Shown piece by piece: positions 15,201 through 48,480 of a stretch of DNA of 64,000 bases (position 1 is the stretch's first letter; each line of letters starts with the position of its first letter). The notes beneath the pieces were generated by a model. The model saw only the letters and a program-made list of their open reading frames with translations, did not search any database and was not told where the DNA came from. Origin of the DNA: Candidatus Thorarchaeota archaeon (GTDB taxonomy: Archaea > Asgardarchaeota > Thorarchaeia > Thorarchaeales > Thorarchaeaceae); assembly GCA_011364905.1 (NCBI GenBank), contig RDNZ01000008.1, positions 4,401-68,400 on the forward strand. The letters are read 5' to 3'. The position numbers were made by a program, and so were the translations under genes.

Positions 15201-18200
15201 TCATTTCTTAGCATCAAGATCCGCGTCGATACTTTTCAGGAGTTCATCAATTAGGGCACTAGGAAGATTCTTCGCTTGTTTCAGAATTGATGCGATTTCC
15301 TCTTGTGGTAAACCTCTTTGTTCAAGTTGTTCACGGAGATTTTCAATCTCAAGATCGCTCAATCGGTCCTCGAACTCCACCTCTTTAATTGGCACTTCAA
15401 GCTCTGTGTCTTCGATCGATTCGAGAAACGCCTGAATCTTCTCTCTCGGAGCTGTTTTTGCTTCCTCAATTATGGCGTCAATTTCCTGTTTCGGAACTTT
15501 CTTCCGGACCAATTCGGCGCGTAGGTCCTCTCGTTCCTTGTCTGATAACGTATCGACTTTCTTTCTGGGTTTTTTCTTGGTTTTTGTTTCTGGCTTTTTG
15601 AAGAACTCAAGAGCAAGTTCTCTTGGCAGCTCTCTGGCCTGCTCCATAATCGAATCTATTTCACGTTCACTTGCCTTTCGCTTGATCAACTCAGAACGAA
15701 GATCCTCTAACTCCTTTTCAGATAGATGTTCTACTTCTCCTTCTTCTATTTCTGGTTTCTTCCTAGGTGTGAAACCTTCCAGCAGCATCTGAACTACATC
15801 CTTCGGTAGATCTCTGGCTTGAGTGACGAATGACTCGATCTCATGAGATGGAATGCCACGTTTCTCTAGCTGCTCTGCCATTTCTGCTAATTCTATTTCA
15901 CGTAGTCGATGTTCAAAATCGAGACCAGTTTCCTCCTCTTCTGAGACCTCTGTATCTTCTTCGAGATCTTCATAGAGATCTGGTTTGGCTACGGTTGCAG
16001 CTCCCCCAATCCTCTTTCTTCTTTCTTCCACGACCTCGTCCATGACCTGCTCTACAGACTTGTTTTGAACCCCTGCAACCCTAATTGCCTCTTGCCCAAT
16101 TACCTCTCTCACAAAGCTAGTTTGTTGACTCATTTTCATCTTTGCAATCTCAAACTTGAAGTCGTCAAGCTCTTGTTGAGTCATTCCAGTGAGAATTGCA
16201 AGGTCAATAATCAGTTCATCTATTTCGGGGACTTCTATAATGATGGACTCTGCTGGTAGTTGAGAAGCTTTTCTCTTTATTCCAATTGGCTCATTCAATT
16301 CATTGAATAGTTCTGCAACGATGGCTTGTCTTGACCGCATACCCTTCGCTGGTTTTGGCACCTTATTCCTGCGTAGTCGTCGGACCTGACCACTGATTAT
16401 TCTAATTATCTTCGGCACCCTCAAAATCCTTACCCACAGGACACCGAAAAGAATCATGAAGATGATAAATGCACCACCAACTGTCATTACGAACCGTTGC
16501 GTAAGTTGTTCACTTGATGGGCTGACAGAGATCGAAAGCGCCACGTCATCAGCAACATAGTATGTCTTGTTGAAGTGAATTGTCACATCTGCAACACCAG
16601 TTCTATCCGTTGCTGTGACACGGAACAGATAGTAACCCTGGCGACTTTCATCCGGACCAAGATACTCGACCTTGGCAAATAGGGGTCCTTTATTATCTAT
16701 AGTAATCATGGCCTCAGTAATGCCCTCTGAAGGATGTCCTGGCCACGCGTCTGAATAATAGATCGAGAAAGTAGTGTTCATTCCCCAATGAAGCGATATC
16801 ACTTCTGGTCCCATGACCTCAAGATTCGTTTGAATCTCGATGATTTGAATATCGAAGTCAAATACTGCTGTAGTACGGTTTTCGAGAGCGAGTTGAATGT
16901 GAAACGATATCGTTAGATCCAAATCCCAGTCAAGTGTGTTAAAGACAAATGTGTAATTACCAAATCCTTGATCGGATAAAGTGAGTGGTTCTTCATAGAC
17001 ACCCCTTCCACTATAGAACGAACCATTGAAGATTCCATCAGGAATTCCCATTGCAGCGTAGGTGTCATTGTACAATAGTGTGATAGTTAGTATGTCTCCA
17101 TATGGGACTTGTAGATGTGCCCATGAGTCTCCGATTTGATATAATTCTGGTAGAAGAATTGAGATGTCAGTGGGGACTGGGGCAATATGAATTCTAATCG
17201 TTGTTTCCACATTATCATAGTTTGCCTTTCGGAATTCCATCGCAATGGTGTATGTACCTGGTCTCAATGTTGCTGTATCTATTGGGATGCCATAGACTCC
17301 TTCGCCAAGATAGGATGCACTGCCAACTCCTCCTGCCCAGGAGAACGTGAATGTATCTGCCTCCATGCCCTGGGCATGATAACTATCATAGTATGTAACA
17401 TTGACCAGCCCTGCCCATCCCCAATCAAATTCACCGGTTCCCGGTTGTATAATAATTGCCTCTAGATTCTTCACGAATATTGATGTGGAATTGTCTGCTC
17501 TCTCATAATCATCACTTGGTGCATTAGCAGAAATGATGAAGGTGTGCAGTCCAGTAATGTCTATGCTCGTATTGAAGTCATAGTAATAATATCCTGGTCC
17601 TCCTATTGATGCCCCATTCGTGAGTGTCCCATTTTTGGCGAGTTCTGGCGAGTTCCATGTCACAAAAAGCCCATCCAAACCTGTAGAAAATGGATATGAC
17701 GCGTTAAGGGCTGGAGCAAGAACATATACTCCAATTCTGACGACATCAGACCAATTGATAGGGTTGGATTCGTAAGCTGCAGTGATATTGTCGAACCAAA
17801 CGACCATCTGAATCTTTGATATCGCCATAATCAGCGTTGTCGATGCATCCGCGTAGTTTTGTTTTCCAGCATTCACATGAATCTGGTAACTTCCGAAACC
17901 AGCAGATCCAGTTGATATAAGAAATCTGTAGTATCCTGGTCTGCTTGGTATTTCTGTCAATGTGAGGTTGCCCTCATAATCCCACCACGCTGATACATAT
18001 GCTTCAGTCACAAGACTGTCATCAAGAGAGTCTCCAATATACACAATTACTTCTTCAGCATCTCCCTGGGAAACTGTGAAGACATAATTATTACCTTCTG
18101 GAATGACTTCCATGGGTCTTGGCAGTAACCTGAAAACTAGCTGCTCTGTAGCATCAATGTAGTTTGGTGCACTGCCTTTGATTACAACGATTATTGTATC

Positions 18201-21200
18201 AGATACTGTGCCAGAGCTAGTATCCAGAATTGCAGTGTAATTGCCGGGTACACCGGATGGGATGAATGGACCAACTCCACCATCCCAGTCAAATGTGATA
18301 GTTGCTAATGATACTGTCTGATTCCTCAATGTGTCATTCAAAGATGCGAAAATTGTGAGAGGTTCACCCCAATATACCTCATTTGTAGACCTTGGTCCAC
18401 TCCAGGCTATAATTAGGTTGGATGGGACTGCAAGGAGATTAATATCAACTTTCAACGTATTAATCGAATAATGCAAGAGATTTGCGCCCACAGTCAAAAT
18501 TTGCGAGCCATAGTTCAAATTGACTGTCTGAAGTGTCAGGTTATAGCTACCATTTCCAAGGTCATCATATGAGTTTGAGTCACTCCAAGTGAGATCGAGA
18601 GTGGCTCCAGCAAGTGGGCTATCGTTGTCATCAGAGTCAACAAGGTATATCATGACCGATGTGGCATAGCCTGCATAGTTTGCAGGAGCAACATCTGCTG
18701 AAAGTCCTGCAACTCTGTTCCTTAATCCAAACACTACAGCTGTCTGAGCGGTTTGATATTGAGACATAGCAATTGTCACATTTACTGTTTTCAGACCTGC
18801 ACTTATCGAATCCATCATGCTCAGAATAATGTTATATTGTCCACCACCTAATGCTTGGACAGTCCATGAGGATGGTTCCAGTCCTGATGGCTCGTATCTG
18901 ACTATTATCTGCCCTTCTGCTCCGTTTATTGGGACTGCATGGTCAGTATCATTGAATTGTATCACAAAAGAAACATCTTCATAAAATGCAACAACTGAGG
19001 GCGATGGCAATCCACTTGAAACAGATGTTTGAATTGCACGGACCACCCCATGTACCTCTGGTGAGCTGATATTTACATAAAATGGACTTACCAAAGCACT
19101 CCATTGTACTTCAATTGAGAATGTGAAAACGCCAATGCTTCCTAAAGAGGATGTGCTGATAAGAATTTCATACTTTCCCGAATCAATGCCTGTTCCCATT
19201 TGTACCCAATAGTCCAGTCCCTCAGCAAGACCCGGTACTTCAACACAATCGAGAACTATAGTTGCACCCTCTATTCCGTTTCTTTTCCTAAGATCAGTGT
19301 AGATCAAGTTTATACTCATTAGGTCTCCAATTGGCGTTTCTTCAATTTGACTTAACTCGACAGTTCCCACTCTGCCAACAGTGTTAACAAAGATTGAGAC
19401 TGCGTCATCCTTGTAATAAGGTGCTCCGCCAGTCCAACCAACCTGAATTGTTATGTTCCAGCTACTTACCAGGTTTGCAGCTATCACAGTAGAATTGATT
19501 TGTAGTCGAAATATTGAGCCAATTGGCTGAACCACATACTCACCAGATGCAAGAAGGATTCCTCCGCTGAATATCGTGATATCATTGAGAGAAACTAGCA
19601 CTCTTGCGCCCGTCGATATATCGACAAACGTAAAGTCCAATGTCACGTTATCAAGGTACCATGTCTGACCTGGTGGAAATACAATCTCAACATTTGATGG
19701 TCGCTCAGTGACAGGAATGTTGATTGCACGTAGTGCTTCGTTGTAGTAAGGCGATCCCGCAGACCAGTTGGCTGTAACCTGTATTGTTTTCACTCCTGGA
19801 ATTCCAAGAACTGATGTATCTATTGAGATTAGGTATTGACCTGGGCTATTCTCATTGATTATATAGTCGATGGATGGCTCAAGTAGTACCACTCCATAAT
19901 GGAGATAGATTGTTCCACCTGATATGCCTAAGGAGGTTGATGCATCCTTATACAGAATAGTGAAGTTTGCATAGTCCTGGTAAAGAGTTTGAGATGGTGA
20001 TGAAATCAAATCCAGACTTGTGTCGCGCTCCTTCATCTCGAAAGGCACAAGTATATCGTTCCAATCATAGAACGGTGCAGCAAATTCAGAACTGAAGTTC
20101 AACCAAAGATGATAGGTGCGTCCCAACTCGAGTGGTTGGTTATAGGTTTCAACTGTGAGGAGATAGTTCTGGTGTGAGGGTCTCCAGGAACAAGTGAATA
20201 GCCAATCTGTTCCATTAAGAATCTCTAGAGCTACTATAATTCCAGTATCGTTTCCTATCGGCAAAAAGGTGTCGAGGTCTTGATAATGCAAGACTATGCT
20301 GAAAGAGTTCTCATAAGGAACTGATGCAACAGGTTCCGCAGTCAACAGGGTGGATCGTGGACTGACAGTAAGGCTCTTTGTTCCACTTCTGCTCTGATAA
20401 TAAAACTGCTCAGATGAAGCTTCCACTCTCAATGAATAGAGTCCCGGTTGGCTGAAATACGATGTGTTCAGGTCCACACGATATTCTCCCGAACCTAAAT
20501 CTGTAACCTGAATATAATTGGAGGGAATCAAATCTACTCCAACATATACCTCAATCGTGGTGTTAAGAACTGCCTTGGAGGTTGAACCAGCAATATCAGT
20601 GTACGAAACAGTGAATGAAACATTGTTGCCGTATGGTGTGGCGGGAGGTGTAGGATAGGTCAGAATTGTCTGACGTTCCACTATCGTTATGCCGATGTTT
20701 CGTCCTGTTACGTTCGAATAGAATGGCAATCCACTCCAAGCAAGATTCAGTACTAGTGTTCTTGCTCCCAGTGGAGCTCCCAATTGACTTGTGTTGAATG
20801 AAACTTCATACAATCCTTCTAGGGAACTATAGGTCAGTGTGAAATCTGGTACATTTAGTGAAATCGTCATAACTGCGGGGTTGTAATCTATAGGGCTGGA
20901 TAAGCCTCCAGTCGTATCTTCATAAGTGAATGAGAATGTTGCATTTTCGCCAAAGGGCACATTGGTCGGAGGGATGACGGAGAGCGACGCAGTCCTAGGA
21001 AGGACTCTCACAGAAATCAAGTCAGTCCTGTTTGTGTAGAATGGAACCACACCAGCGGACCAGTTTATGAAAACTCTCATTGAAAAGATTCCAGTTCCTC
21101 CAACTATTGAATTGTTGAATCCGATTGAATACTCTCCTTTCCTGTTGACACTGTCTATCTCCCAAATGTCCACTATGGATAAATCAACGGAAGCGCCGAC

Positions 21201-42100: not shown

Positions 42101-44812
42101 GTGGTCAATTTTGATGTCCTTCTTATACTGGAAGTTGACTGCCTGTTCGCCAAGTGTCAGAAATAGCTGTGGATTTTTCTGATTGTTATATTGAGTTTTA
42201 ATCCATGCATCCGATCTTGCAGTATTTGAAATCCGAACCTCATCAACTATTGCATCGAGATATGACGTTCCACCTGGGTTATCGGACCTGCGGCCAATTC
42301 TAACCGGTCGAGCTGGGTCGTTCGTAGATGCTGGGATCCCGGTTGTCACCTCATCAACTAGCTCACCATTCAGGTAGAACCTGGCAAAGACTGAAGGGTA
42401 GAAGACTCCAACAACGTGGTACCATTGACCAGCATCGACCCGTTCATAACCAACAGTGTTGGTATTTACACCATCTGGGCTATACCGAAACATGACCCAC
42501 CCTGAAGGACTAATGGAAGAATCATCATCAAAACTGATGTCCCATCCTCGATAACCTGATTCGCCGGACTTGACTACAAGATAGTCATTATCTATGAAAT
42601 TCGCCTTGAACCAAGCTTCAACGGTGAATGCTCCAGTCATCTGCAATTCTGTTGGATCTCCAAAGTCTATGTAGTCATTCACGCCCTCCAGATCGATGGC
42701 ATCTCCAAAATACCCGCCGACGCTATCAGTAGAAGTCATTGTTCCATACGTCGTCCCGTCAAGATTGTGGGATGTGCTATCCACAATCTGAGGTTGATGC
42801 GGTAGATAGTCGGCTTGAGAAGAGTCCCACTGTGGTTGCGAAGGGTTGTCATTCAGATGCCAGACAGCAGAATAGCCCGAATCCCATACAGCCTCCGGAT
42901 TCTCTTGGCTTCCAAGATTCTCATCACCATAAACCATGACAATTGTTGTGTCTTCTACTGACGACAGATGAGGAGCTTTTACCCAACAAACCAGATGTGC
43001 ATTCGTTCCATCTCCCTGCTTGTCAAACAAATCCAAATCGTATGGAATAACTTGACCATTATACAGAAATGCGATATCGTCACCATCTGGTTGCGCATTA
43101 AGGTGAAGGTCCTGGTCCCATATATCTACAAGGACCGGGAAGTCTTGAAGATCCGAAACAACTTTGGTGTGGTCGATGACGATGTTCTTGCTAAAGCTGA
43201 AGCTGGGGATTGTATCAGATGCTTCTGAATCAGTGAAATCTACGAAAAGCCTGGCGAGGTCTGCTTGCGCAAATCCTGATGAGCCCTTTATTTGGTTGTA
43301 CGCATATTGCTGGTTCGAATATGCATAATCAATCATTATACAGATGTAATTGCCCCTCTGCCAACCCGGTCGTGAAACAACCTCCTGGATAAGGGATGAT
43401 ATATCCGGAGTGTCATACCTCCCATTTGCTGTCCACGTTGTAGGATGCCAATATACGCTCGTGTTCACCCAATCATACCTGTCTGGAAGAAGGGGGTACC
43501 CACTGGTGAAGGCAGCAACATTGTCTTCATCAGCTACGTAGACACGCATTCCTGGAAAACCAGTTGAGTCACTTACTGCTTCCACTCGCAGGTTCGCTGA
43601 AGTAATTGATGCTCCTTGAGGTACATACAGTGGAAACTGAAATCCAACTTGATACGCAAAGGCATCACTCCAATCGCTTCCAAAAGTCGTGGGAACATCA
43701 GCACCAACATCCAACCACCCATTATTACCGTAGCCGTCGAGATCGACTCCCCCAGACCCCCCATTTGAATCAGGGGCACTATAGCAGTCTCTGTTAATGC
43801 CATCTGGAACATATGGATTCACACTCCCTTGTGTTGAACCAGTCACGCGAGCACCATTAGCAAGAAGATCAATCTGCTCAGGAAACGGACGTACAGAGAG
43901 TCTTAGCTCTATCTCATCGATGAACACCTCATGATCTGCAGTACTGGGATTGCCATTGATATCTGTCCCAAGTCCTATATTGAAAAGTAATGCAGTCGTT
44001 ACTGGCAACGACTCAAAGTATGATGAAGGAACCGTGGCACTAGCCTGAAGCCATGTGTCCATAGGTGTACCAAGCCCAAACACGTGGTACTTTGAAACAT
44101 AGCCCTCAAGACTAGTTGTGATGAATACCTCATCATTCAGAGTAGAGGTGCTTGAAACATAATATTGAAAGCTAATTTCTGCTGAGTAGACATTCCTCCA
44201 AGGAATGGGGACCTGTTGACTCATATAGAATCCGTTGGTGGGATTGACGGTTGCCCCGCTATCTAGATTACCATCGAATCTCCAACCTGAACTCGCATCA
44301 TACCCAGCACCAGCTACGCGATTGATTTCAAAATAGCCATGCTGAGGGTGCTGGGTCCCACTGGGAACTGCGTCATTCTTCACAAATGTCCAAGCATCCG
44401 GGATAAAGAAGGGGTCGTAGTTATACTCCGGATGGTCTGTAAGAAACCAATGTTCCTCATGGTATGTATCGAGTTTTGAATTGACAAGCACATCATCGAC
44501 CCACATCGAGAGATGGTCAAGATCTGCTTCTAATCCCTCGGAACTCCAACCTAAAGGCGGATCAATGCCAACAAACGCTGTGTGCGAATAGTCAATTACA
44601 GAAGTTCCGCTTGCAACACTCAGCCCGTTGATGGTTCCAGGCAAGGGATTTCCATTCCCTGAGTTGGTGTCCTGCCAATCACTAGGGACAAAATAATCTC
44701 CTCCAGCTATGGGATTTTTATTAAATGAAAACCCATCATTGGTTATTGGACCACTTGCGAATGGGACCAAGAAGATTATAACAAATGCAAGAGCAATCCC
44801 TGCCTTTTTCAT
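27143..44812 (-). CDS. Giant type-I membrane surface protein (5889 aa) with multiple DUF2341-like/LamG-like modules
   Basis: Uninterrupted 17,670-nt ORF. Signal peptide MKKAGIALAFVIIFLVPFASG. ~540-aa head domain homologous to the smaller giant. Six canonical modules (FPVLVDI/FPVLIDI/FPLLIDI/FPMLIDI + DGDDI + VWHL + W..T.(Y/F)NNQ.NP) plus one divergent module. Long repeat array. TM AILFGVPIGAILLLGAVLWT (27860..27919). 238-aa cytoplasmic tail (27146..27859). Confidence 0.85.
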   Translation of the reverse strand: MKKAGIALAFVIIFLVPFASGPITNDGFSFNKNPIAGGDYFVPSDWQDTNSGNGNPLPGTINGLSVASGTSVIDYSHTAFVGIDPPLGWSSEGLEADLDHLSMWVDDVLVNSKLDTYHEEHWFLTDHPEYNYDPFFIPDAWTFVKNDAVPSGTQHPQHGYFEINRVAGAGYDASSGWRFDGNLDSGATVNPTNGFYMSQQVPIPWRNVYSAEISFQYYVSSTSTLNDEVFITTSLEGYVSKYHVFGLGTPMDTWLQASATVPSSYFESLPVTTALLFNIGLGTDINGNPSTADHEVFIDEIELRLSVRPFPEQIDLLANGARVTGSTQGSVNPYVPDGINRDCYSAPDSNGGSGGVDLDGYGNNGWLDVGADVPTTFGSDWSDAFAYQVGFQFPLYVPQGASITSANLRVEAVSDSTGFPGMRVYVADEDNVAAFTSGYPLLPDRYDWVNTSVYWHPTTWTANGRYDTPDISSLIQEVVSRPGWQRGNYICIMIDYAYSNQQYAYNQIKGSSGFAQADLARLFVDFTDSEASDTIPSFSFSKNIVIDHTKVVSDLQDFPVLVDIWDQDLHLNAQPDGDDIAFLYNGQVIPYDLDLFDKQGDGTNAHLVCWVKAPHLSSVEDTTIVMVYGDENLGSQENPEAVWDSGYSAVWHLNDNPSQPQWDSSQADYLPHQPQIVDSTSHNLDGTTYGTMTSTDSVGGYFGDAIDLEGVNDYIDFGDPTELQMTGAFTVEAWFKANFIDNDYLVVKSGESGYRGWDISFDDDSSISPSGWVMFRYSPDGVNTNTVGYERVDAGQWYHVVGVFYPSVFARFYLNGELVDEVTTGIPASTNDPARPVRIGRRSDNPGGTSYLDAIVDEVRISNTARSDAWIKTQYNNQKNPQLFLTLGEQAVNFQYKKDIKIDHNKVAADLTGFPVLIDIYDSDLHSKVQPDGDDIMFTSNGRSLPHELELFDQQYNSTHAHLVAWVRADISSVSDTIISMYYANSAMGAKESPEEVWRNQYQGVWHLGESPSVGKPAPQIIDSTYNNNDGTTYGTMLEEDKVPGLIGNAIDFDGSNDYIDCGDTASLAVGYNDFVMSLWFATSDLDAPLANKGAIGTDAYRYMLSVTSSGTIKAEIDDNSASPGKISIYSASALNDGLWHYAAMVREGNLLHLYIDGSEVPTSPVDITGYGSINSIEPFLIAACDNYDNAGAPNLFLSAKIDEVHVLSSTTTSEWILTEFNNQNNPSSFYSIGIEQEVTVPQEVPLGFMYKKDIVIDHTKVTADLYGFPVLIDLFDSDLRFDVQSDGDDIVFVKDGWILPHEIELFEQSYNSTHGHLLAWVRTDLSASSDTVLSMYYGNPNSNSLENPHGVWDTSFAAVWHLSEDPADTVYDSTSNSNDAVGLPIGTEPTLQTGKFDGCSEFYGEGTNERIEAPHSTSLVLSSDMLVEAWVHTNNTDPTSDVIVAKWGAVGHRNYWLGKLDSSTFAFYVDNTQSVTAPISLVNDGKWHHVVGVANAGTSELLLYVDGVERNSAPYSGTTQTGTSVLQIGNNPGSTGFIQEWDGRIDEVRVSSSYRSPDWITTEFNNQNDPESFYTVKEETMLGETYEFSRQITVTTGSEPVTAGYSTSVTFDHAALVASGKSQADGDDMRIMYWNGFSLIELDRVLDSDSSWDSAATKVWFRIQSDIPSSTADDNYYLYYGDPSVSSPPDNHANVFQFYDGFESGDLNSWDGSYTDIGDSLSVTTEQANTGTYSAKGVVDNQAAAQAMIWKDFSDKTSLFARVHFYLPATFSTTDHVTIMQFVDTSPVWVNQLSLTIYSDMSLYLWNAIASEAYGYGTTSPISKGSWHMLEIQAKFSTTDGEARLWVDGNLEVEETGINLGSEGVNRFCTVFYWASPQTEPNTVYADDVFLRPYVSPEPTTSLGIEINQATQYNYEKDIAIDHTKVGTDLNDFPLLIDIFDADLRTKAQSDGDDIIFKSGEIILPHEIESFEQSYNDTHAHLVAWVKTDLSSSVDTVITMYYGNSVVGNQENVAGVWDSNYRGVWHLSENPTGPLYDSTSNSNDGTGYNLQSDDQVEGQIDGSIDFDNTQDYINCGNDTSLNVGSNDFSFSLWFNYDGVNMGTLAGKGAVLMAKRYRISIESGPGMLMAAIDDNTVAKNIYSTSTYGDNLWHLVSMIRDGNYLRLYIDGAEDPNSPIDITGYGSLDEVESFYINAFRSEIGGTLGYWSTANTDEVRVANTALSPEWIATEYSNQYSPSSFYTIGPEKTSQAEHQPNVNTAEFKYRKNLIVDHAMVAEDLTDFPMLIDIFDTDLRTDVQADGDDIMFKNGYTWCPHEIVYFDQTYNGTHAHLIAWVKTDLSSSIDTTITMYYGNPDLTNQENPSAVWGSYVGVWHLDQSPAGTVLDSTHYNNDGATLGSMSGSDLVQGQIGSGFELDGIDDMINVSESSSLDSIKSGGTLSIWINWVNSSDGGYQRIMTTSDRFILNPSPPPTLIQDDGFEWAVQPDGDNFFYPWGGNDIDYNLVTNPFTNNVWHHLVVTLDYSTKTVEIYLDGTQLILAIENVPTQWTQLASLGDWLWGGNQLDSASRFLGRFDEIQVSPAIRSSGWILTEYNNQYNPSSFYSIESEEQVSGNGYIFTTSSESSITVGTELSLGVQTSILSYADDFTQGTSFSIVNGSLPIWTANVMISPPPELEAVSFEISYPEGEWWPFSVASPSGVERTFAADWTCFDGKLIVGSTAIDEYGMWKIKFLDRNHVLDMQIGPSGGPYSTTGQFAVGENIQFHVWSSGTIGSTISLELTDPTGSTWYAGSTTFQGAGFTLPYYHRKYLAISHDNVMENLVNFPVLVDIYDTDLRTDVRADGRDIAFTIGEKTLSHEIELFDQTYNLTHAHLVAWVNVPVLSGSTDTVISMYYGNPLAPIVYDSGPVWDSGYLGVWHLSESGTGLLGEYRDSSQYKNDGQGGDGDSLFVPTQTVGKIGAGQEFNNLDGYYDFIDCGDSPLWDIDGYQITLEAWIQHDITPNTHVYGIMNHKGWYDGYALYINYGGGSTIKPTFSLPGDTHQLVGANDVTGGSWHQIVATYDGSLMRIYVDGVQDPNVLTKTNAIEPSSFEKDFWIGQGDQPQNKTWSAEWDGQIDEVRVSDVTRSAGWIQTQFSNQYNPSNFYSIGLEENIGYSESASINLDTSAPAGVWHATTRYSDSNSDVNLRTGIFDRTFIVKRGTSLSLTAPGDAILDGISTKLIGEQLYVEFDLQDTLTSTMVSGATVSMNWSVSGTPTDVQLNDYGDGRYGKTLNTSDLGGYGRWRLDVQASHSFYSDATDFLYLDLSHRTFMTYEPPNDTPYGDNFEIRLTLRDKFDSTPLTGATLSCNATILGIPTDYGNGTYLVTVDSTGFSSGEHTFRFIATPSTTYLLSSSIDVQFNYRPIATETIPLSPDAVEAPWGQQVNTSIYWFDIDHAGIGVDSSTISISPIVPIQVDETSIGNYLITIDVSSFMPGTYYFDLTCSKQNYQSSTTTISILILPHRTTPSVNYNSTIPVGTDVYFDVLWMDLDLDSVPVSPSNLTQVSLDWGTGSDSHSVLGFWVDTSGWAAGSYSINATISATASPRFYMDSYIIIHLEIRKLGVYVSWEPLEPFPNGNDFVMFVHVNVSEPDSPIDGTAIAGLDQTYFSARNETGGLYTFESFLNLGDGRYQITIDNTRFLEGQYEIIVFVDFQPTENYTDSSTTQVSFTYRPILTYLSSSNYPSVTTSFDTNVTITLSYVDIDHVQNITTGIMTSEGALIEWQHIGSGTYEVLIIVQGWDLGAHEVNITADASGYQAKTLTFQILVQIAYAYARSSVSIIDLPLGDTAVFYADYWDITHNEAIIGATLNHNWTYPLSISWTGDQYRIELPSIDTDSLGTYLVVLNFSKGPNYQFGYINISIILRTHLTEFRLASATEPTSYNAMVNISVYCGDLDNDLGIIDAPVNLSVYGDSGWISSTFKNDTTLGNGYYIISFAATNLGTSGIYDITVYFNWTGPVPKFYDNSVVSSVRIVGEASDLELIVSAEPTPYLENLSYTYFYSELYSGNGISNVSAPAGNVFIYVEFVSQSFSPSLFSIKEDSGNLGHYTIEFNSTIFAEPGVYTMVVHVNWTETQEPFYGNWTDTVSVRVIPRSTLINLVPPESTPYGVNATFSFSFDDIAGSGSYSIANSSQMRVTIGLADYSLTYNTSARQFHVSFNTSILGAPLGTRQFTIGVSWIGAPFYANLTGRNVIISVRYRETEFDYSTISPTAYGDNVTLHLTFNDITPGQSQTIDDGFITLYNGSGAIPVTEYSFMPLGNGEYDVELKTTYFTKPGTYTITVAMSTSHFYYDIVTASRTLSLRYRLTVLLIEPVEETAYNNSLQVVFHYSDVLTLSEIGNSSTPTTVWILNGSSWFFVSVWRGAPEDYLLTIDTHNQNLEINKEYVLWIQVSYPDSSPFYLSAEAFVSFTLQERATILEVTESPEPTQYLDSVDFAVYYQDSSSSAGIAGATITLAVGGTNLVEGIDYSLLSPFDGSYYISINTTVLGPAGSSVNLELGASWIDNEPYYSTSTLSLTLTVTERNSITEIVSSTTQVKFLENVTFTIRYSDETSGKAIQFSKDQLLIYNEGTLLSSNDFAMVYLGSGYEISINSSVLAAGLIDNQNITFYIDWHNTVAPYYADGRASSWVTVANRIGIVIRGATPTVPIYDNMTLNFTYVDDSNGAGINDAIVVFDCLSPSGLAEGTDFWIYRNSGDYSIFVDTTSLGSIGTFTFSLRLLWNPTVAPYYRNTTTIFLQGSVRLIQLQLTNEEPVPSTVPINDNVSVILNLQDLDHFVPISGAESLFSVEYKTNASGPYIWSITPISPGIYNLTVDCYDAGTTVTNALIITLALPDYQTVQVQVPFQIRLRQGELNELVSQKPYYSETTFVIVELVDTDANNTPISDATLSITWPDIGYTPYYTNLGNGQYNITLTTSSLDAGLYTLMVGALRSDYFISDISVPVEIQRIPTGLILPQTIPDVYWGDDISFWAIFNDTKAGTVISGATLTYQFGTLSGSLTEIVSDQGNYTVTVDTGNLVLASTYVISITATFNNYVTNTSQVIVNVLKLPTTVSIISSAQQEVFKGTPVNVTVYVNNTYRNIPLLGATVTVRWVLQGPQSISLSPIPAKDGYYTCFIDTNDFLVGQYSITIEASGTNYLRSVAPASIKVKQIATVLQLDALTSSYSGQSFNWSDTIRIGVYVLAPSLNESDPFSTGLANCTVLWSLSGTTFTGEFLNGTSMEGPGYFYFDFETWNYDVSTYTLRITAYPNIGMFAYSSNLTTLIIKPIETSVESTYLSPKIWGWTGWVDITYWDLLFDRGIAGATVLVEWDGGESTSTYVANGTYQVFINASLVSPGIYPVSVRFLMDNYKSGTGVFTLNVKEVPTDIAAFAPTINQIDHDVLNLQIPYGDTISLTLFYNDTWYNRGIMGATETKCVILGSSVPDGDNLLIEEITNGNYSLLIDTTRWTVSSDPYRLILNFHLTNWSRATLDIHLTIIDVPTALYIDPSSVTMNYGQVFSIWVLYYDTWEGHMNASIVGASINATSLDTRFVDVSLNQSDPSRPGWYEIRVRSNRAEGTALVSIILSKDNYVSISALVTVSVEPSEFDLLVEQAILFGVPIGAILLLGAVLWTRLFSVPKQLRAIRKMVRTIAKGKIPKPPDGVLSRQEIVANLFNDIAEPIGITKIASSMPSEPIASDVPEIEELLIQLSILSKLSPEELEDFKLDVSKMKLSEQVSFVKEVINQEAIKQARLERKPMEVILEETAAKARAVLAGEEIEVVVESKPLEERIIPPEVEEPEEAIPEPVEFEEVESAEMLDEDELKQIRKKLESVGIKGSELETIMDQARELPRSLAEELLRSILGKGGEEE
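27930..35230 (-). repeat. Array of ~100-aa beta-sandwich-like (Ig-like) repeats, extracellular stalk of the 5889-aa protein
   Basis: Periodic strand motif of aromatic/aliphatic residues followed by D/T-rich turn and I.GA (e.g. IYWFDIDHAGIGVDSS, VTITLSYVDIDHVQNITTG, AVFYADYWDITHNEAIIGATL, VNISVYCGDLDNDLGIIDA). Collinear with the array in the smaller giant. Confidence 0.6.
35362..43198 (-). repeat. Array of ~350-aa DUF2341-like + LamG/ConA-like modules inside the 5889-aa gene (protein-level tandem repeats)
   Basis: Module starts read on the reverse strand near 43198, 42115, 41050, 40000 (divergent, lacks the FPVL motif), 39060, 38005 and 36385. DNA identity between modules is only moderate, so the duplications are old. 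A ~200-aa non-module segment sits between modules 6 and 7. Confidence 0.7.
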
Positions 44813-44967
44813 ACTACCTGCTCCTAATTACTACCACTGCGATAGAACAGCATATTATCAAAATATCAAGAAATAAGATAATCTAGTATAGTTGAATACC
44901 GCTTTTTGGAAAAGAAGGCAAAAAATTGAACAACCGTGAATCTAAATGAAGACCCTTTTTGAATACT

Positions 44968-45600
44968 TCACTCCAGGACAAACTCAATCCTGTTTCTTTC
45001 AATCAACTCATTAAGAGCGGGAGGATTCAAAGGCTGAATGTCTTTTTTAATTTTTGATACTAATCTTGTTGTTTCCGGCACTAGCAACTCGCGCAGCGAT
45101 GCACATAAGAAGAGAGGGGTAATATCAAGACGTTTCAGTGGGTTTTCCAAAAGATTGAACCTTTCGAGTTTCCAACATTTGGAGATGGGAGATACATCCA
45201 GATTCACTAACCGATTCTTCTCCAGACTGAGCGTTACCAGATTCTTGCATTCAGAAATTGCAGAAAGATTGACTCTTAGAATTTGATTATGGCTCATATC
45301 AAGTTGCTCTAGATGGGTACAATAACGTAGCGAATCCAAGTTTACTATCTGTAGATTATTGTCGCTTACATTCAATTGCCGAAAGTTTGCGCAGAAAGCC
45401 AAGACAGTCAGGTCAACTGTCATTAAATGATTACCACAGAGATTCAGGTCTTCAAGATCATCAAGCTGGTCGAGTTCTGTCAGGTCGATAGCAACAATTG
45501 AGTTCTTTGAGAGATCGACTATTTTTGAGCTAGAGGAGATTTGGATTTCTTTATTGGTGCCATCTGATAGGGTGACATTAACTTCTATCACTTTCGCCAC
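44968..45600 (-). CDS. Leucine-rich repeat (LRR) protein, cytosolic
   Basis: About eight 22-23-aa repeats of L..L.L..N.L..(V/L)(D/N)L (LEDLNLCGNHLMTVDL, FRQLNVSDNNLQIVNL, LEQLDMSHNQILRVNL, LVTLSLEKNRLVNLDV, LERFNLLENPLKRLDI). No signal peptide or TM helix. GTG start. Same strand as, and 155 nt upstream of, the giant gene. Confidence 0.8.
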   Translation of the reverse strand: MAKVIEVNVTLSDGTNKEIQISSSSKIVDLSKNSIVAIDLTELDQLDDLEDLNLCGNHLMTVDLTVLAFCANFRQLNVSDNNLQIVNLDSLRYCTHLEQLDMSHNQILRVNLSAISECKNLVTLSLEKNRLVNLDVSPISKCWKLERFNLLENPLKRLDITPLFLCASLRELLVPETTRLVSKIKKDIQPLNPPALNELIERNRIEFVLE

Positions 45601-45772
45601 TCTTTGTGAAACTGGATTAGTTCACTTCGTCTTGTTAATTCTCACATTTCAATATATGGCGACTCACCTTAACTACGAATAAACTGGCACAGACTCACGA
45701 TATTCCATTCTTACTTGAGTATTTTGACATCAAAGCTTCTGTGTTCCTTGTCTTCAATGGTTTAAGAAAGAT

Positions 45773-45780
45773 TTTAATAT
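45773..45780 (+). promoter_or_regulatory. Putative TATA box (TTTAATAT) for GTPase-like paralog 1
   Basis: The TTTAATAT core is shared with the paralog's upstream region, ~70 nt before the ATG. The downstream leader motif TTGAGGAAGGCGTGGTTG (45823..45840) is also conserved. Confidence 0.3.
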
Positions 45781-45848
45781 ATAAGAATAGTAATTAATTA
45801 CACCTCATAGTGTTGATTATTATTGAGGAAGGCGTGGTTGTCGTAAAG

Positions 45849-47090
45849 ATGCAGATTCCGGGTACAAACATTGACGTAAGTCTCAAGGTCAATCGCATAT
45901 ACGTTGCAGACCCGGCTGTAAATCGAAGACTAAAATTCGCCGGTAGGTCCTTCAAAGAAATCATGGAGGAAGTACAACGATTTACCTACTTGCGAGGATT
46001 CAACGTTCCTCTCCCAATTCTAAAGTTTATTTTGAAGAGGATAGGCCTTCCTGAAGTCGATATAATTCCTGGAGAAGATGAGCTAACAAAGGAGGATCTG
46101 CTCGAACTCTCAAGAGCGTTGAATGTTCTCGATTCACTAAAGGATGAATTTCTCTCGCCAACTGGCAAAAGTGGCATTCCCGACGATATTCAAAGCACTC
46201 TAATACGTTCCTCTCCAGAGCTTGAAGACTTGAAGATGGATGTTCCAGCTCCTCAAGAAACAAGTATTTGGGATATTCCTGCAAGCGAGGAGGTCAAAGG
46301 GTTGGTCTTTTCTTTCCATGGTGAGAATATCCCAAGCACCTCCACGCCAAGAACACAATCAGCGGATGAAAACAAATCTGTGAAATTCATATGGGATGAT
46401 CCAGAGGTAGTTGCATCATTGGAAGATGTATCTCAAGATGAGAAATCAATGCCTGAGGGCGTACCCGAAATTCTCGACCTGAAAGTCCTGTTTCTTGGCG
46501 AAGAAGGAGTCGGTGTGAACAGCATTATCTTTGAGTCAAATCTGAAGCTTGGAAACGACTATTCTTCTCTTGATTTACCCCCAACTAGACCATTCACATT
46601 CAGCAACATAATTGAGCGAAACGATGCAAATGTTAGAGTTGATGCTTGGACATTTCAGAAGAGTACTGAGGCAAAAGTTCCAAAGACGGAGTTTTACACT
46701 GGATCTGGAATTGTTGTGCTGGTTTATTCGGTGGCAGAGCGATGGAGCTTCGACAGCCTTGACTTCTGGATTCGAGAAGTTTCTAACGCCTTCCTTATAC
46801 CACCACCGATAATAGTCGTCGGAAATAAAACCGATCTCCGTGATCATCCAGTCTATGATGATGATGATGAGGTTGAAGTCCCAGTTTCAACAGAAGAAGC
46901 CCGTGAGTATTGCGAAAAAGTCGCAAAGACGCTTGGGGAAAATGGACAGTCTCATCCGCTGTTCTTCATTGAAACCTCAACAATAACGGGACAAGGAATC
47001 ACCGAGCTATTGAATAAAATCATCGACTTTTGGCAAAGCAATGAGCGCCCAAGCATGCCAGCAACCGAGCAACACGCACCAACACTCTAA
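45849..47090 (+). CDS. Ras-superfamily small-GTPase-like protein with degenerate P-loop and switch II, plus ~215-aa N-terminal extension (paralog 1)
   Basis: C-terminal domain: G1-like FLGEEGVGVNS (Lys replaced by Val, Ser/Thr by Asn), G3-like DAWTFQ (DxxG Gly replaced by Thr), intact G4 VGNKTD, G5-like ETSTITGQG. Start set at the ATG at 45849 (MQIPGTN) by alignment with the paralog; the 13 upstream codons of the ORF track have no counterpart. Confidence 0.75.
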   Translation: MQIPGTNIDVSLKVNRIYVADPAVNRRLKFAGRSFKEIMEEVQRFTYLRGFNVPLPILKFILKRIGLPEVDIIPGEDELTKEDLLELSRALNVLDSLKDEFLSPTGKSGIPDDIQSTLIRSSPELEDLKMDVPAPQETSIWDIPASEEVKGLVFSFHGENIPSTSTPRTQSADENKSVKFIWDDPEVVASLEDVSQDEKSMPEGVPEILDLKVLFLGEEGVGVNSIIFESNLKLGNDYSSLDLPPTRPFTFSNIIERNDANVRVDAWTFQKSTEAKVPKTEFYTGSGIVVLVYSVAERWSFDSLDFWIREVSNAFLIPPPIIVVGNKTDLRDHPVYDDDDEVEVPVSTEEAREYCEKVAKTLGENGQSHPLFFIETSTITGQGITELLNKIIDFWQSNERPSMPATEQHAPTL

Positions 47091-47176
47091 AGCTGGTTTC
47101 TTCAGGCATTGAATAGATAATCGAAGACTACATTTAATTCTCTCAACAAACAACCCCGCAAGATATCAGAAAAGTA

Positions 47177-47184
47177 TTTAATAT
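47177..47184 (+). promoter_or_regulatory. Putative TATA box (TTTAATAT) for GTPase-like paralog 2
   Basis: Identical 8-mer ~55 nt before the ATG. Conserved leader TTGAGAAAGATGTGGTTG (47211..47228) ends 7 nt before the ATG. Confidence 0.3.
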
Positions 47185-47235
47185 GTTCAAATATTACATA
47201 ATAATTACTCTTGAGAAAGATGTGGTTGCTTAGAT

Positions 47236-48480
47236 ATGCAGATCCCCAGGACTAACATTGAGGTAACGCTCAAGACCAATGGCATCTATCTCAGAGACCC
47301 GGCTACACATCGCAGGCTGCGCATAATTGGTAGATCTTTCAAGGAAATATTGGAGGATGTGCAACGGTTTGTATATATGCGCGGATTCAAAGTTCCTCAG
47401 CCAATTATCAAATTCATCTTGAAGCGAGTAGGTCTTCCTGAAGTCGATATCATTATTGAAAAACATGAGTTGACAGACGATGACCTTCAGGAGCTTTCGA
47501 AAACTCTCGACGTTATTGATAGTCTAAAGGACGAGTTCCTCACTCCATCTTACTCTCTCAAGGCAATTGATGAAACTGATAGTGGCATTTCAGAAATACC
47601 ACAAGAACTACCAGATTTAACAGCAGACATTCCAGCGCCTCAAAAAATGAGTGTCTGGGACATTCCTGTAGACGAGGAGATCAAGGATCTTGTTTTCTCC
47701 TTCCACCCAGAGAACATATCAACAAGTGTTCCCACCCCACGAACTCAGACGTCTGCGGACGAACAACCGATGAAATTCATCTGGGATGACCCTGCAGTTG
47801 CGGCAGCCATCGCAGAAACATCCGATGACGAGCAACTATCACCTGAAGTCATTTCAGACCTGCAAGACCTGAAGGTTTTGTTCCTAGGTGAAGATGGGGT
47901 TGGTGTGAACAGCATTATCTTTGAGTGCAACCTGAAGCTCGGGAACGATTATTCATCCCTTAGTTTGCCACCTACCAATCCATTTACATACAGTAACATA
48001 ATTCAAGACGATGGAACAAGTGTTCGTGTTGATGCTTGGACATTTGAGAAAAGTATGGAAGCGAAAGTGTCAAAGACAGAGTTCTATTCAGGATCCGGCA
48101 TCATAGTACTTGTTTATTCAGTTGCTGAGAGATGGAGTTTTGATAGCCTTGATTTTTGGACTCGAGAAGTTTCCAATGCCTTCCCAATTGCACCACCTAT
48201 AATTGTGGTTGGAAATAAGACTGACCTCCGTGACCATCCAGTTTATGACGAGGAAGATGAGGTGGACATCCCAGTGTCCACGGAAGAGGCTCGTGACTAT
48301 TGCTTCAAAATGGCTATGACTCTTGGAGAAAGTGGGCGGTCTCATCCTGTGTTCTTCATTGAAACTTCAACAATTACTGGACAAGGCATTACTGAACTTT
48401 TGAAGAAGATTGTTGACTTTTGGAAAGCAAATGAACGACCAAGCATGCCTGCCACTGAGCAAGATGTCCCAACAATCTAG
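47236..48480 (+). CDS. Ras-superfamily small-GTPase-like protein with degenerate P-loop and switch II (paralog 2)
   Basis: Same architecture and same substitutions: FLGEDGVGVNS, DAWTFE, VGNKTD, ETSTITGQG. High identity to paralog 1 along the full length, including the C-terminal peptide NERPSMPATEQ. Confidence 0.75.
   Translation: MQIPRTNIEVTLKTNGIYLRDPATHRRLRIIGRSFKEILEDVQRFVYMRGFKVPQPIIKFILKRVGLPEVDIIIEKHELTDDDLQELSKTLDVIDSLKDEFLTPSYSLKAIDETDSGISEIPQELPDLTADIPAPQKMSVWDIPVDEEIKDLVFSFHPENISTSVPTPRTQTSADEQPMKFIWDDPAVAAAIAETSDDEQLSPEVISDLQDLKVLFLGEDGVGVNSIIFECNLKLGNDYSSLSLPPTNPFTYSNIIQDDGTSVRVDAWTFEKSMEAKVSKTEFYSGSGIIVLVYSVAERWSFDSLDFWTREVSNAFPIAPPIIVVGNKTDLRDHPVYDEEDEVDIPVSTEEARDYCFKMAMTLGESGRSHPVFFIETSTITGQGITELLKKIVDFWKANERPSMPATEQDVPTI

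What the first reader, a model, noticed from the sequence alone, without database searches (positions are those of the whole stretch)
15201..48480. Candidate undescribed module: LRR protein + two giant tailed surface proteins, divergently paired with two degenerate Ras-like GTPases
The gene order on the minus strand is LRR protein (45600..44968), a 155-nt gap, giant 2, an ATGA overlap, then giant 1. A 248-nt AT-rich divergent promoter region separates the LRR gene from two tandem GTPase-like paralogs on the plus strand. In eukaryotes and in ROCO proteins, LRR and Ras-like (Roc) domains work together as signalling scaffolds. Here they are split into separate genes flanking receptors that have conserved cytoplasmic tails. 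The ESCRT cluster lies within about 3 kb of the module's right-hand end (48480 versus 51046), and a roadblock/longin-like gene is at 62.5 kb. My inference is an outside-in module that links a very large surface adhesin or receptor to cytoplasmic GTPase-like switches or scaffolds. No part of this is established.
Basis: inference. Interest (0 to 1): 0.8.

Follow-up and report, generated by a model that had tools for sequence, protein, structure and literature searches.

The report
Thorarchaeal giant-receptor, LRR, pseudoGTPase gene module
In Thorarchaeota (Asgard archaea), genes for giant membrane-anchored surface proteins with conserved inner tails sit beside genes for a small leucine-rich-repeat protein and a Rab-like GTPase lacking its catalytic motifs in every locus I could check, which points to an undescribed, eukaryote-style link between cell surface and cytoplasm whose function is still untested.

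Summary
The window holds two giant type-I membrane proteins (3981 and 5889 aa, joined by an ATGA overlap), a 210-aa cytosolic LRR protein, a 248-nt divergent intergenic region, and two tandem Ras-fold proteins with degenerate G1 and G3 motifs.

Among 33 distinct loci from Thorarchaeota-labelled MAGs and metagenomes, the GTPase-like gene (42-97% identity) has the LRR gene as its divergent neighbour in 24 of 25 testable cases. A giant LamG/DUF2341 gene lies beyond the LRR gene in 17 of 17. The set survives in three different gene orders.

Adjacency to the ESCRT cluster is not part of the core: it holds in only 14 of 22 loci. The second GTPase-like gene is a lineage-specific duplicate.

The GTPase-like proteins are Rab-like, not Roc, and have no COR domain. 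The whole family lacks the Walker lysine and DxxGQ but keeps NKxD and the G5 motif. Each carries an N-terminal domain found in only 16 representative clusters among 1.84 billion proteins.

The tails fold confidently into a helical juxtamembrane domain plus one to four three-helix repeats of about 45 aa. These repeats have no detectable relatives.

I read this as an undescribed, Thorarchaeota-restricted surface-to-cytoplasm adaptor module. Physical interaction and function remain inferred.

The parts
15201..27146 (-). Giant 1 (3981 aa). Type-I membrane surface protein: signal-like N-terminus, ectodomain with DUF2341 and LamG_3 rich in Ser/Thr and NxS/T sequons, one transmembrane segment, and a 403-aa cytoplasmic tail. 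It is a paralog of giant 2.
   Evidence: ORF. Pfam. Hydropathy. NxS/T sequons 69 against 35 expected, and collinear 36% identity to giant 2.
16413..16496 (-). Transmembrane segment of giant 1 (residues 3551-3578).
   Evidence: Kyte-Doolittle window score 2.56. The stretch that follows is basic, net +9 over 60 aa.
15204..16412 (-). Cytoplasmic tail of giant 1: basic juxtamembrane stretch, a conserved helical domain of about four helices, then four three-helix repeats of about 45 aa (consensus LSExELExLRxxLxxRGxPxxEIxSIxxQARxLPRxLxxELLKSI).
   Evidence: Ortholog alignment. AF2 model with mean pLDDT 83.4. Repeat hits. Repeat consensus. No structural or sequence relatives in PDB.
27143..44812 (-). 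Giant 2 (5889 aa). Same architecture as giant 1, with about 2200 extra residues of DUF2341-LamG_3 repeats (at least six LamG_3 copies) and a Polysacc_lyase-like stretch. Its stop codon overlaps the giant 1 start (ATGA).
27860..27937 (-). Transmembrane segment of giant 2 (residues 5626-5651).
27146..27859 (-). Cytoplasmic tail of giant 2 (238 aa): the same juxtamembrane domain and one three-helix repeat.
   Evidence: It has 42 tail homologs; every hit that carries a taxon name is Thorarchaeota or, in one case, Promethearchaeota, and most hits are unnamed.
44813..44967 (.). 155-nt AT-rich gap between the LRR gene and giant 2. It may hold an internal promoter for the giants.
   Evidence: Sequence read directly. 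Not tested.
44968..45600 (-). Small cytosolic LRR protein (210 aa): about six LRRs with conserved Cys positions and a conserved C-terminal cap (LNPPALNxLI..RIEF). It is the divergent partner of the GTPase-like gene.
   Evidence: Pfam LRR_8 at 4.7e-14. No transmembrane segment. Ortholog conservation. Adjacency to the GTPase-like gene in 24 of 25 loci, and in 9 of 9 loci found by searching from the LRR side.
45601..45848 (.). 248-nt divergent intergenic region with TATA-like elements facing both ways.
   Evidence: Sequence read directly. Promoter function not tested.
45849..47090 (+). GTPase-like A (413 aa from ATG 45849; the ORF opens at GTG 45810). It has a family-specific N-terminal domain (~105 aa), a linker predicted with low confidence and likely disordered that carries conserved short motifs, and a Rab-like G domain lacking the Walker lysine and DxxGQ. 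This is the ancestral-type copy.
   Evidence: GTPase-like genes in single-copy genomes are about 80% identical to A and about 67% identical to B.
47236..48480 (+). GTPase-like B (414 aa): the lineage-specific tandem duplicate, 69% identical to A, with the same architecture and the same degenerate motifs.
   Evidence: Two copies occur only in a subclade.
48492..49190 (-). Alpha/beta-hydrolase (Abhydrolase_11). An optional accessory gene that travels with the GTPase-like gene in 11 of 33 loci, including the rearranged locus L023.

Best explanation
This is a conserved gene module restricted to Thorarchaeota. Its core has three kinds of component.

1. One or two giant type-I membrane proteins. Their glycan-binding-type ectodomains (DUF2341 and LamG repeats) face outward. 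Their conserved helical tails face the cytoplasm and consist of a juxtamembrane domain plus one to four three-helix repeats.
2. A small cytosolic LRR protein.
3. A Rab-derived protein with a private N-terminal domain. Its G domain has lost the residues needed for canonical phosphate/Mg binding and for hydrolysis.

Most likely mechanism (inferred, not shown): the tails act as multivalent docking platforms at the inner face of the membrane. The LRR protein and the Rab-like pseudoGTPase form a static adaptor or scaffold on them, not a GTP-hydrolysing switch. This would couple a very large adhesin or receptor to intracellular partners.

Shown: the gene architecture, the topology by hydropathy, the family-wide motif loss under strong conservation, and gene linkage that survives rearrangement. 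Inferred: that the proteins bind each other, and what the complex does.
For: Linkage.
- Of 33 distinct loci (no pair above 97% identity), 24 of 25 with upstream sequence have the LRR gene as a divergent neighbour. The one exception is the displaced second copy.
- 17 of 17 have a giant LamG gene beyond the LRR gene.
- An independent scan of metagenomes starting from the LRR protein gave 9 of 9 orthologous loci with the GTPase-like gene next door.

The same gene set occurs in three orders:
- g1-g2-LRR / GT(-GT)-abh (the window);
- g2-LRR / GT / convergent g1 with no ESCRT genes nearby (L030-L037, L077);
- left flank-GTb-abh-g1, with g2-LRR-GTa on a second contig of the same MAG (L023 and L024).

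Specificity. A paralogous family (25-30% identity, same N-terminal domain, Walker lysine kept) has no LRR or giant neighbours.

Selection. Across 24 diverse members, mean column identity is 60% with many invariant positions. These include the non-canonical G1/G3 residues and short conserved motifs in the low-confidence, likely disordered linker.

Topology. Signal-like N-terminus, sequon-rich ectodomain, one transmembrane segment, then a basic stretch. The LRR and GTPase-like proteins have no hydrophobic segments.

Tail. The tail is a folded, conserved structure (AF2 pLDDT 83). It is conserved between orthologs at 46-47% identity.

Co-expression hint. The ATGA overlap couples the two giant genes.
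Against: - No interaction was tested. Multimer modelling was not available.
- All loci come from one class-level lineage, so shared ancestry contributes to the conservation.
- The tail is not more conserved than the ectodomain (47% against 45% identity to L033).
- There is no charge complementarity: tails, LRR and GTPase-like proteins are all acidic.
- NKxD (108 of 109) and the G5 motif are retained, and 30 of 109 members have a Lys one position after the canonical site. Some form of nucleotide binding, and hence regulation, cannot be excluded.
- The AF2 model of the N-terminal domain is unreliable (pLDDT below 55).
- ESCRT adjacency in 14 of 22 loci leaves an ESCRT-related role open.
Confidence: 0.45

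Rival explanations
1. Biogenesis, sorting or turnover factors. On this reading the LRR protein and the Rab-like pseudoGTPase do not relay signals. They help target, insert, position or remove the giant proteins. One version has them hand the proteins' tails to the neighbouring ESCRT machinery for vesicle budding, in a lineage reported to lack ubiquitin.
For: - The module sits directly next to AspRS and the EAP30-Vps25-Vps4-Snf7 cluster in 14 of 22 loci.
- Thorarchaeota seemingly lack ubiquitin homologues (PMC9192718, read), so a different cargo adaptor would be needed.
- Proteins of 4000-6000 aa plausibly need dedicated handling.
- From general knowledge, Rab- and Arf-type folds are associated with trafficking.
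Against: - ESCRT adjacency is lost in 8 of 22 loci that keep the module.
- AspRS, a housekeeping gene, lies between the module and the ESCRT genes, which suggests plain regional synteny.
- There is no sequence link between the tail and any ESCRT-binding domain.
Confidence: 0.25
2. A split, ROCO-like or SHOC2-MRAS-like nucleotide-regulated switch. On this reading the GTPase-like proteins still bind guanine nucleotide through a non-canonical P-loop and toggle their binding to the LRR protein.
For: - NKTD is kept in 108 of 109 members and ETSxxTG is invariant, which argues for a preserved guanine pocket.
- 30 of 109 members read GVG[VI]KS, with a Lys shifted by one position.
- The best PDB match of the LRR profile is the LRR domain of the Chlorobium tepidum Roco protein (5il7 and 6hlu, E=6e-38), and SHOC2 also matches (1e-26). 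Identifying 5il7 and 6hlu as CtRoco rests on my own knowledge.
- A related small LRR gene lies next to an Arf-like GTPase in another archaeal contig (L079).
Against: - There is no COR domain, and Ras outscores Roc in Pfam (48.9 against 32.2 bits).
- The nearest solved sequences are Rab1, Rab9 and Ypt1.
- The canonical Walker lysine position is V or I in all 109 members, the Mg-binding Ser/Thr position is N, K or S, and WDTAGQ has become W[TS]F... in all.
- Internalin A scores almost the same as the Roco LRR (4e-37), so the LRR ranking does not discriminate.
Confidence: 0.15
3. No functional link. On this reading the adjacency is inherited regional synteny within one archaeal class, and the LRR/GTPase-like pair works on something unrelated to the giants.
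For: - All loci come from Thorarchaeota-type MAGs.
- In the 52-97% identity group a block of more than 30 kb, including housekeeping genes (AspRS, TldD/PmbA, ArgRS), is collinear.
Against: - Where both flanks have changed (L030-L038, L023), LRR, the GTPase-like gene and the giants remain adjacent, even in a different order.
- The paralogous GTPase family in the same MAG (OWC3: L038 against L051) lacks these neighbours.
Confidence: 0.12

Closest known systems
ROCO proteins (LRR-Roc-COR; for example LRRK2 and Chlorobium tepidum Roco)
   Same: An LRR unit is paired with a Ras-superfamily G domain. Pfam Roc matches the G domain weakly (1e-7). The Roco LRR is the top-scoring solved LRR, by a negligible margin.
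   Different: - No COR domain.
- The LRR and the G domain are separate, divergently transcribed genes.
- The G domain is closer to Rab/Ras than to Roc.
- The P-loop lysine and DxxG are lost.
- The gene set is tied to giant membrane proteins.
Rab-family small GTPases, including the crystallised Thor-Rab (PMC10933270)
   Same: Same fold. The best sequence matches are Rab1a, Rab9, Ypt1 and Rab18 at about 1e-12. Rab-like NKxD and ETSxxTG motifs are present.
   Different: - The Walker lysine position is V or I, the Mg-binding Ser/Thr position is N, K or S, and WDTAGQ has become WTFEKS.
- There is a 200-aa N-terminal extension containing a private domain.
- There is no C-terminal Cys.
- Thor-Rab is a canonical, active GTPase.
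PseudoGTPases (for example CENP-M, the p190RhoGAP pG domains, and the IRGM 'GMS' proteins in which Met replaces the P-loop Lys). This comparison rests on my own knowledge.
   Same: A GTPase fold is retained under selection while catalytic G motifs are lost, which suggests a scaffold or regulator role.
   Different: There is no sequence relationship to any of them. Here G4 and G5 are fully retained while G1 and G3 are lost. The setting is archaeal and the genes are linked to LRR and giant surface proteins. Nucleotide binding has not been measured.
Eukaryotic receptor or adhesion scaffolds that use LRR adaptors with Ras-family proteins (SHOC2-MRAS-PP1C; Rsu1 in integrin adhesions). This comparison rests on my own knowledge.
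   Same: The logic is similar: a transmembrane receptor tail, a cytosolic LRR adaptor and a Ras-fold protein. SHOC2 matches the LRR profile at 1e-26.
   Different: This is analogy only. No orthology is shown, the tails are unrelated, and no interaction data exist.
Giant prokaryotic surface adhesins with LamG/DUF2341 domains
   Same: A huge, Ser/Thr-rich, lectin-like repeat ectodomain.
   Different: These giants have a C-terminal transmembrane anchor followed by a 240-400-aa folded cytoplasmic tail of conserved three-helix repeats. They are also genetically linked to cytosolic signalling-type proteins.

Membership tests
ROCO (Roc-COR) proteins | A COR domain directly C-terminal to the Roc G domain in the same polypeptide | tested here: not met
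   Pfam finds only Ras and Roc at residues ~213-405 of a 414-aa protein. No COR hit appears, and only about 20 residues follow G5.
ROCO (Roc-COR) proteins | The G domain is of Roc type (best match Roc) and has an intact P-loop | tested here: not met
   Ras scores 48.9 bits against 32.2 for Roc. The best PDB sequence matches are Rab1a, Rab9 and Ypt1. The Walker lysine is absent.
ROCO (Roc-COR) proteins | LRR or other repeats fused N-terminally to Roc | tested here: not met
   The LRR is a separate gene on the opposite strand. The N-terminal domain of the GTPase-like protein has no LRR match.
Canonical Ras-superfamily/Rab GTPase | G1 motif GxxxxGK[ST] | tested here: not met
   The motif reads G-E-x-[GQ]-V-G-[VI]-[NKS]-S in all 109 members. 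The position aligned to the Rab1a Lys is V or I.
Canonical Ras-superfamily/Rab GTPase | G3 motif DxxG(Q), seen as WDTAGQ in Rab | tested here: not met
   The motif reads W-[TS]-F-[EQP]-[KQG]-[SG] in all members.
Canonical Ras-superfamily/Rab GTPase | G4 motif NKxD and G5 motif (ETSAK-like) | tested here: met
   NKTD occurs in 108 of 109 members. E376 and S378 are invariant, within ETS[TS][IV]TG.
Canonical Ras-superfamily/Rab GTPase | C-terminal Cys prenylation motif (eukaryotic Rab) | tested here: not met
   The C-terminus is ...NERPSMPATEQDVPTI, with no Cys.
PseudoGTPase (functional class) | A GTPase fold is retained | tested here: met
   Pfam Ras. The AF2 G domain has pLDDT of about 70. Foldseek returns Rho, Rab and Ras structures at E about 1e-9.
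PseudoGTPase (functional class) | Loss of nucleotide binding and/or hydrolysis shown biochemically | not testable with these tools
   Only sequence-level loss of G1 and G3 is shown. Binding and hydrolysis assays are needed.
Leucine-rich repeat proteins | Tandem LxxLxLxxN repeats recognised by LRR profiles | tested here: met
   LRR_8 at 4.7e-14, LRR_4 at 1.4e-10. The profile matches 366 PDB LRR chains.
Type-I single-pass membrane surface protein | N-terminal signal sequence, one C-terminal transmembrane segment, positive-inside juxtamembrane stretch | tested here: met
   Hydropathy segments lie at residues 13-39 and 3551-3578 (g1) and at 1-25 and 5626-5651 (g2). The first 60 tail residues have net charge +9. 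No dedicated signal-peptide predictor was available.
ESCRT machinery (as an accessory component) | Consistent co-location with ESCRT genes, or an ESCRT-binding domain | tested here: not met
   Adjacent in 14 of 22 loci and absent in 8 of 22 that keep the module. No ESCRT-related domain is present in the tail, LRR or GTPase-like proteins.

The most novel reading that the evidence does not exclude
Thorarchaeota may possess a true transmembrane adhesion and signalling complex. In it, giant lectin-like receptors would use multivalent three-helix-repeat tails to recruit an LRR adaptor and a Rab-derived pseudoGTPase. That would be a prokaryotic counterpart, and possibly an evolutionary forerunner, of eukaryotic receptor-LRR-Ras-fold scaffolds. 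It could couple contacts with partner cells or glycans to membrane remodelling by the adjacent ESCRT genes.
Probability: 0.2. Interest if true: 0.85.

Novelty: new variant of a known kind. Interest (0 to 1): 0.6.

Why it matters
Asgard archaea are studied for the origins of eukaryotic cell organisation. Their many small GTPases have almost no known partners or cellular roles.

This module gives one GTPase-fold family a concrete, testable context. It has a fixed LRR partner and giant surface proteins with folded cytoplasmic tails, which I believe is an unusual architecture for an archaeal surface protein (my own knowledge, not tested here).

If the proteins bind each other, this would be an archaeal surface-to-cytoplasm adaptor system built from 'eukaryotic signature' domains, and a natural archaeal pseudoGTPase. 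It could bear on how uncultured Thorarchaeota contact partners or substrates.

All components are small enough, or modular enough (tail repeats, LRR, G domain), for recombinant tests.

Tried and rejected
- **ROCO membership.** Rejected: no COR domain, Rab-like G domain, separate genes.
- **Tail repeats as SAP, UBA or HeH-type domains.** This was my own lead from the motif. Pfam at E up to 10 gave only noise. Foldseek of a confident tail model gave no hit at E<=1e-3. A repeat profile against PDB matched only de novo designed helical repeats. Rejected.
- **N-terminal domain of the GTPase-like protein.** No Pfam or NCBIfam match. The AF2 model has pLDDT below 55. The fold is unresolved.
- **Exact-sequence look-up of the window protein.** Not on record.
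- **Word-indexed protein search with the LRR protein.** It returned only 4 hits and was uninformative, so I took orthologs from the fetched loci instead.
- **The distant paralog loci (L039-L062) as divergent versions of the module.** HMM re-scan and Pfam show unrelated neighbours: phosphoribosyltransferase, AMP-binding enzyme, ABC/FtsX transporter.
- **Charge complementarity between tail and partners.** None: all are acidic.
- **The 'roadblock/longin' gene at 62.5 kb.** No match in Pfam, NCBIfam or PDB.
- **Literature.** Seven full-text searches found no description of this module. The ESCRT synteny paper plots only 2 kb around ESCRT genes.
- **Tail-bearing giant in MAG OWC5 (L068).** The gene is cut by the contig end, so it gives no information on partners.

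Full report
**1. The observation**

The ORF map reproduces the finding exactly. On the minus strand lie giant 1 (15201..27146, 3981 aa), giant 2 (27143..44812, 5889 aa) and a 210-aa ORF (44968..45600). On the plus strand lie two ORFs of 426 and 414 aa (45810..47090 and 47236..48480).

The stop codon of giant 2 and the start codon of giant 1 share ATGA. The family alignment starts at MQIPGT, so GTPase-like A most likely begins at ATG 45849.

Pfam calls LRR_8 (4.7e-14) for the small ORF. For residues ~213-405 of both plus-strand proteins it calls Ras (about 1e-12) ahead of Roc (about 1e-7). The giants carry DUF2341 and Laminin_G_3 units. Giant 2 has at least six LamG_3 copies plus a Polysacc_lyase-like stretch.

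The two giants are collinear paralogs at 36% identity. Giant 2 has about 2200 extra residues of repeats.

**2. Topology**

Each giant has a hydrophobic N-terminus and a single hydrophobic segment near the C-terminus. After that segment comes a strongly basic stretch (net +9 over 60 aa), followed by an acidic tail of 403 aa (g1) or 238 aa (g2). The ectodomains are Ser/Thr-rich, and giant 1 has 69 NxS/T sequons against 35 expected.

The LRR and GTPase-like proteins have no hydrophobic segment. So the giants are type-I surface proteins with long cytoplasmic tails, and the other three proteins are cytosolic.

**3. The GTPase-like family**

A protein search found 123 homologs. The complete ones are ~400-440 aa and cover at least 87% of the query, and shorter hits are truncated sequences. 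Nearly all hits that carry a name come from Thorarchaeota MAGs.

In 109 near-full-length members the motifs read as follows:
- G1 is G-E-x-[GQ]-V-G-[VI]-[NKS]-S.
- The Rab WDTAGQ block is W-[TS]-F-[EQP]-x-x.
- NKTD is present in 108 of 109.
- The G5 block ETS[TS][IV]TG is essentially invariant.

A profile search of PDB puts Rab1a, Rab9, Ypt1 and Rab18 on top (about 1e-12). The printed alignment pairs the Rab1a Walker lysine with V and the Mg-binding Ser with K/N. Foldseek of the AF2 model gives generic Rho, Rab and Ras matches; the G domain has pLDDT of about 70.

The first ~105 residues form a highly conserved domain. The following linker is modelled with low confidence and is likely disordered, but it carries conserved short motifs: SIWDxP...YSFHxEN, TPRT and KFIWDDP. 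The C-terminus ends in NERPSMP.

The N-terminal domain has no Pfam or NCBIfam match. In an exhaustive phmmer scan of 1.84 billion representatives it hits only 16 clusters. In the full-length hits (319-471 aa) it sits at the N-terminus; the rest are short fragments.

A paralogous family at 25-30% identity shares the architecture but keeps the Walker lysine (GVGK). It also lacks DxxG. Canonical hydrolysis is very unlikely. Retention of G4 and G5 leaves nucleotide binding open.

**4. The tails**

Orthologous giant-1 tails align end to end from the window to relatives at 46-47% identity.

An AF2 model built from 38 tail sequences is confident (mean pLDDT 83.4, with 234 residues at 90 or above). 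It shows a juxtamembrane helical domain followed by four three-helix units joined by low-confidence linkers. Giant 2 has the same juxtamembrane domain and one unit.

Neither Foldseek (no hit at E<=1e-3) nor a repeat profile against PDB (only designed helical repeats) nor Pfam finds a relative. I therefore dropped my SAP/UBA lead. No other ORF in the window carries this tail.

**5. Synteny, the key test**

Contexts came from three sources: exact-protein look-ups, a scan of species-representative genomes, and a metagenome scan starting from the LRR protein. I mapped them with tblastn and with HMMs built from the window proteins and their locus homologs.

Collapsing loci whose GTPase-like proteins are more than 97% identical leaves 33 distinct loci at 42-97% identity:
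- The LRR gene is the divergent neighbour in 24 of 25 loci with at least 900 nt of upstream sequence.
- A giant LamG gene follows the LRR gene in 17 of 17 loci with enough sequence.
- All 9 orthologous loci found from the LRR side have the GTPase-like gene next door.

Three gene orders occur:
- **A** (the window and the 52-97% identity group): g1-g2-LRR / GT(-GT)-(abh)-AspRS-ESCRT.
- **B** (the 44-45% group, for example L033 on a 103-kb contig): g2-LRR / GT / convergent g1, with no AspRS or ESCRT genes.
- **C** (MAG TM2M.152): the window's left flank (GIFT protein ... PolB ... methylase) runs straight into GTb-abh-g1 (L023). g2-LRR-GTa-AspRS sits on another contig (L024).

In OWC3 (L038) the genes downstream of the GTPase-like gene are unrelated to those in the window. 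Downstream, ESCRT/AspRS adjacency holds in 14 of 22 loci, a convergent giant-1 tail in 6, and neither in 2.

The paralogous Lys-containing family has quite different neighbours (phosphoribosyltransferase, AMP-binding enzyme, ABC/FtsX transporter), even within the same MAG.

Tandem GTPase-like genes occur only in a subclade. GTPase-like genes from single-copy genomes resemble copy A (about 80% identity) more than copy B (about 67%).

Conclusion: the core set is giant(s) + LRR + one pseudoGTPase. Copy B and the hydrolase are accessories. ESCRT proximity is regional synteny in one part of the lineage.

**6. What it most likely is**

Retention of the same genes through shuffling, the fixed divergent LRR/GTPase-like pair, translational coupling of the giants and compatible topology together favour a functional module.

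The commitment I make, at a confidence of about 0.45, is this. The giant tails are multivalent docking sites at the inner membrane face for an LRR-pseudoGTPase adaptor. The adaptor acts as a scaffold, not as a hydrolysing switch.

Rivals:
- a biogenesis, sorting or turnover role, possibly linked to ESCRT (0.25). Thorarchaeota are reported to lack ubiquitin (PMC9192718);
- a still nucleotide-regulated, split ROCO-like or SHOC2-like switch (0.15);
- mere inherited synteny (0.12).

No interaction has been tested.

**7. Comparison with known systems**

ROCO membership fails on COR, on fusion and on G-domain type. The top PDB LRR match is the C. tepidum Roco LRR (5il7 and 6hlu, 6e-38), but internalin A scores 4e-37, so the ranking carries no weight.

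The proteins work like pseudoGTPases by sequence, but there is no biochemistry. The crystallised Thor-Rab is a different, canonical protein (PMC10933270).

Seven literature searches found no description of this neighbourhood.

**8. Novelty and score**

The domains are familiar. The novelty lies in four things:
- the combination of components;
- the family-wide G1/G3-dead but G4/G5-intact Rab-like protein with a private N-terminal domain;
- the orphan three-helix-repeat cytoplasmic tails;
- the strict gene linkage.

I rate it a new variant of a known kind (a receptor or adhesin with LRR and Ras-fold cytosolic partners), with interest 0.6. The main limits are restriction to one uncultured lineage and the absence of any interaction or expression evidence.

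Noticed in passing
L079:3957-6071 (metagenome contig Ga0315550_1000152): A 276-aa LRR protein, 31% identical to the window LRR over residues 1-192, is followed on the same strand by a 328-aa Arf-like small GTPase (Pfam Arf 2.7e-26, Roc 5.5e-12). The pair lies between a thermosome gene and HisRS. Pairing of a small LRR gene with a small GTPase gene may therefore extend beyond the Thorarchaeota pseudoGTPase module.
   Followed up: partly
window 54561-56138 (-): A 525-aa protein with no Pfam, NCBIfam or PDB match sits directly after the Snf7 gene in every ESCRT-linked locus examined. It is 67-97% identical in the relatives, which makes it a candidate undescribed ESCRT-associated gene in Thorarchaeota.
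   Followed up: partly
window 4262-5452 (-): A 396-aa protein matches the IFT52 GIFT domain at its N-terminus (Pfam 1.3e-16) and gives weak coiled-coil-type hits at its C-terminus. It is conserved at 91% identity in L023.
   Followed up: no
window 47236-48480 (+), residues ~105-208 and 400-405: The GTPase-like linker is modelled with low confidence and is likely disordered. It still carries near-invariant short motifs (SIWDxP..EEV..YSFHxEN, TPRT, KFIWDDP), and the C-terminus ends in NERPSMP. These are candidate docking motifs.
   Followed up: no
L039-L062 (for example L044:10022-11254): A paralogous Thorarchaeota family (25-30% identity) has the same N-terminal domain and a Rab-like G domain. 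It keeps the Walker lysine but also lacks DxxG. Its conserved neighbours in the two loci examined are a divergent phosphoribosyltransferase and an AMP-binding enzyme; an ABC/FtsX transporter lies downstream in L044.
   Followed up: partly
Its identity remains open.
   Followed up: partly
window 48492-49190 (-): An Abhydrolase_11 gene accompanies the GTPase-like gene in 11 of 33 loci. In L023 it moved together with GTPase-like B next to giant 1, so it may be an accessory member of the module.
   Followed up: partly
loci L007, L028, L032, L033; proteins P0041, P0062, P0075, P0099, P0119: Several MAGs labelled Odinarchaeota, Hermodarchaeota, Promethearchaeota, Sifarchaeia or Hodarchaeota carry orthologs of the GTPase-like gene at 44-68% identity. 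Where I examined the locus, the context was Thorarchaeota-type: the full ESCRT-linked arrangement in L007, and arrangement B in L032 and L033. The taxon labels of these assemblies may be unreliable, or the module may reach slightly beyond Thorarchaeota.
   Followed up: no
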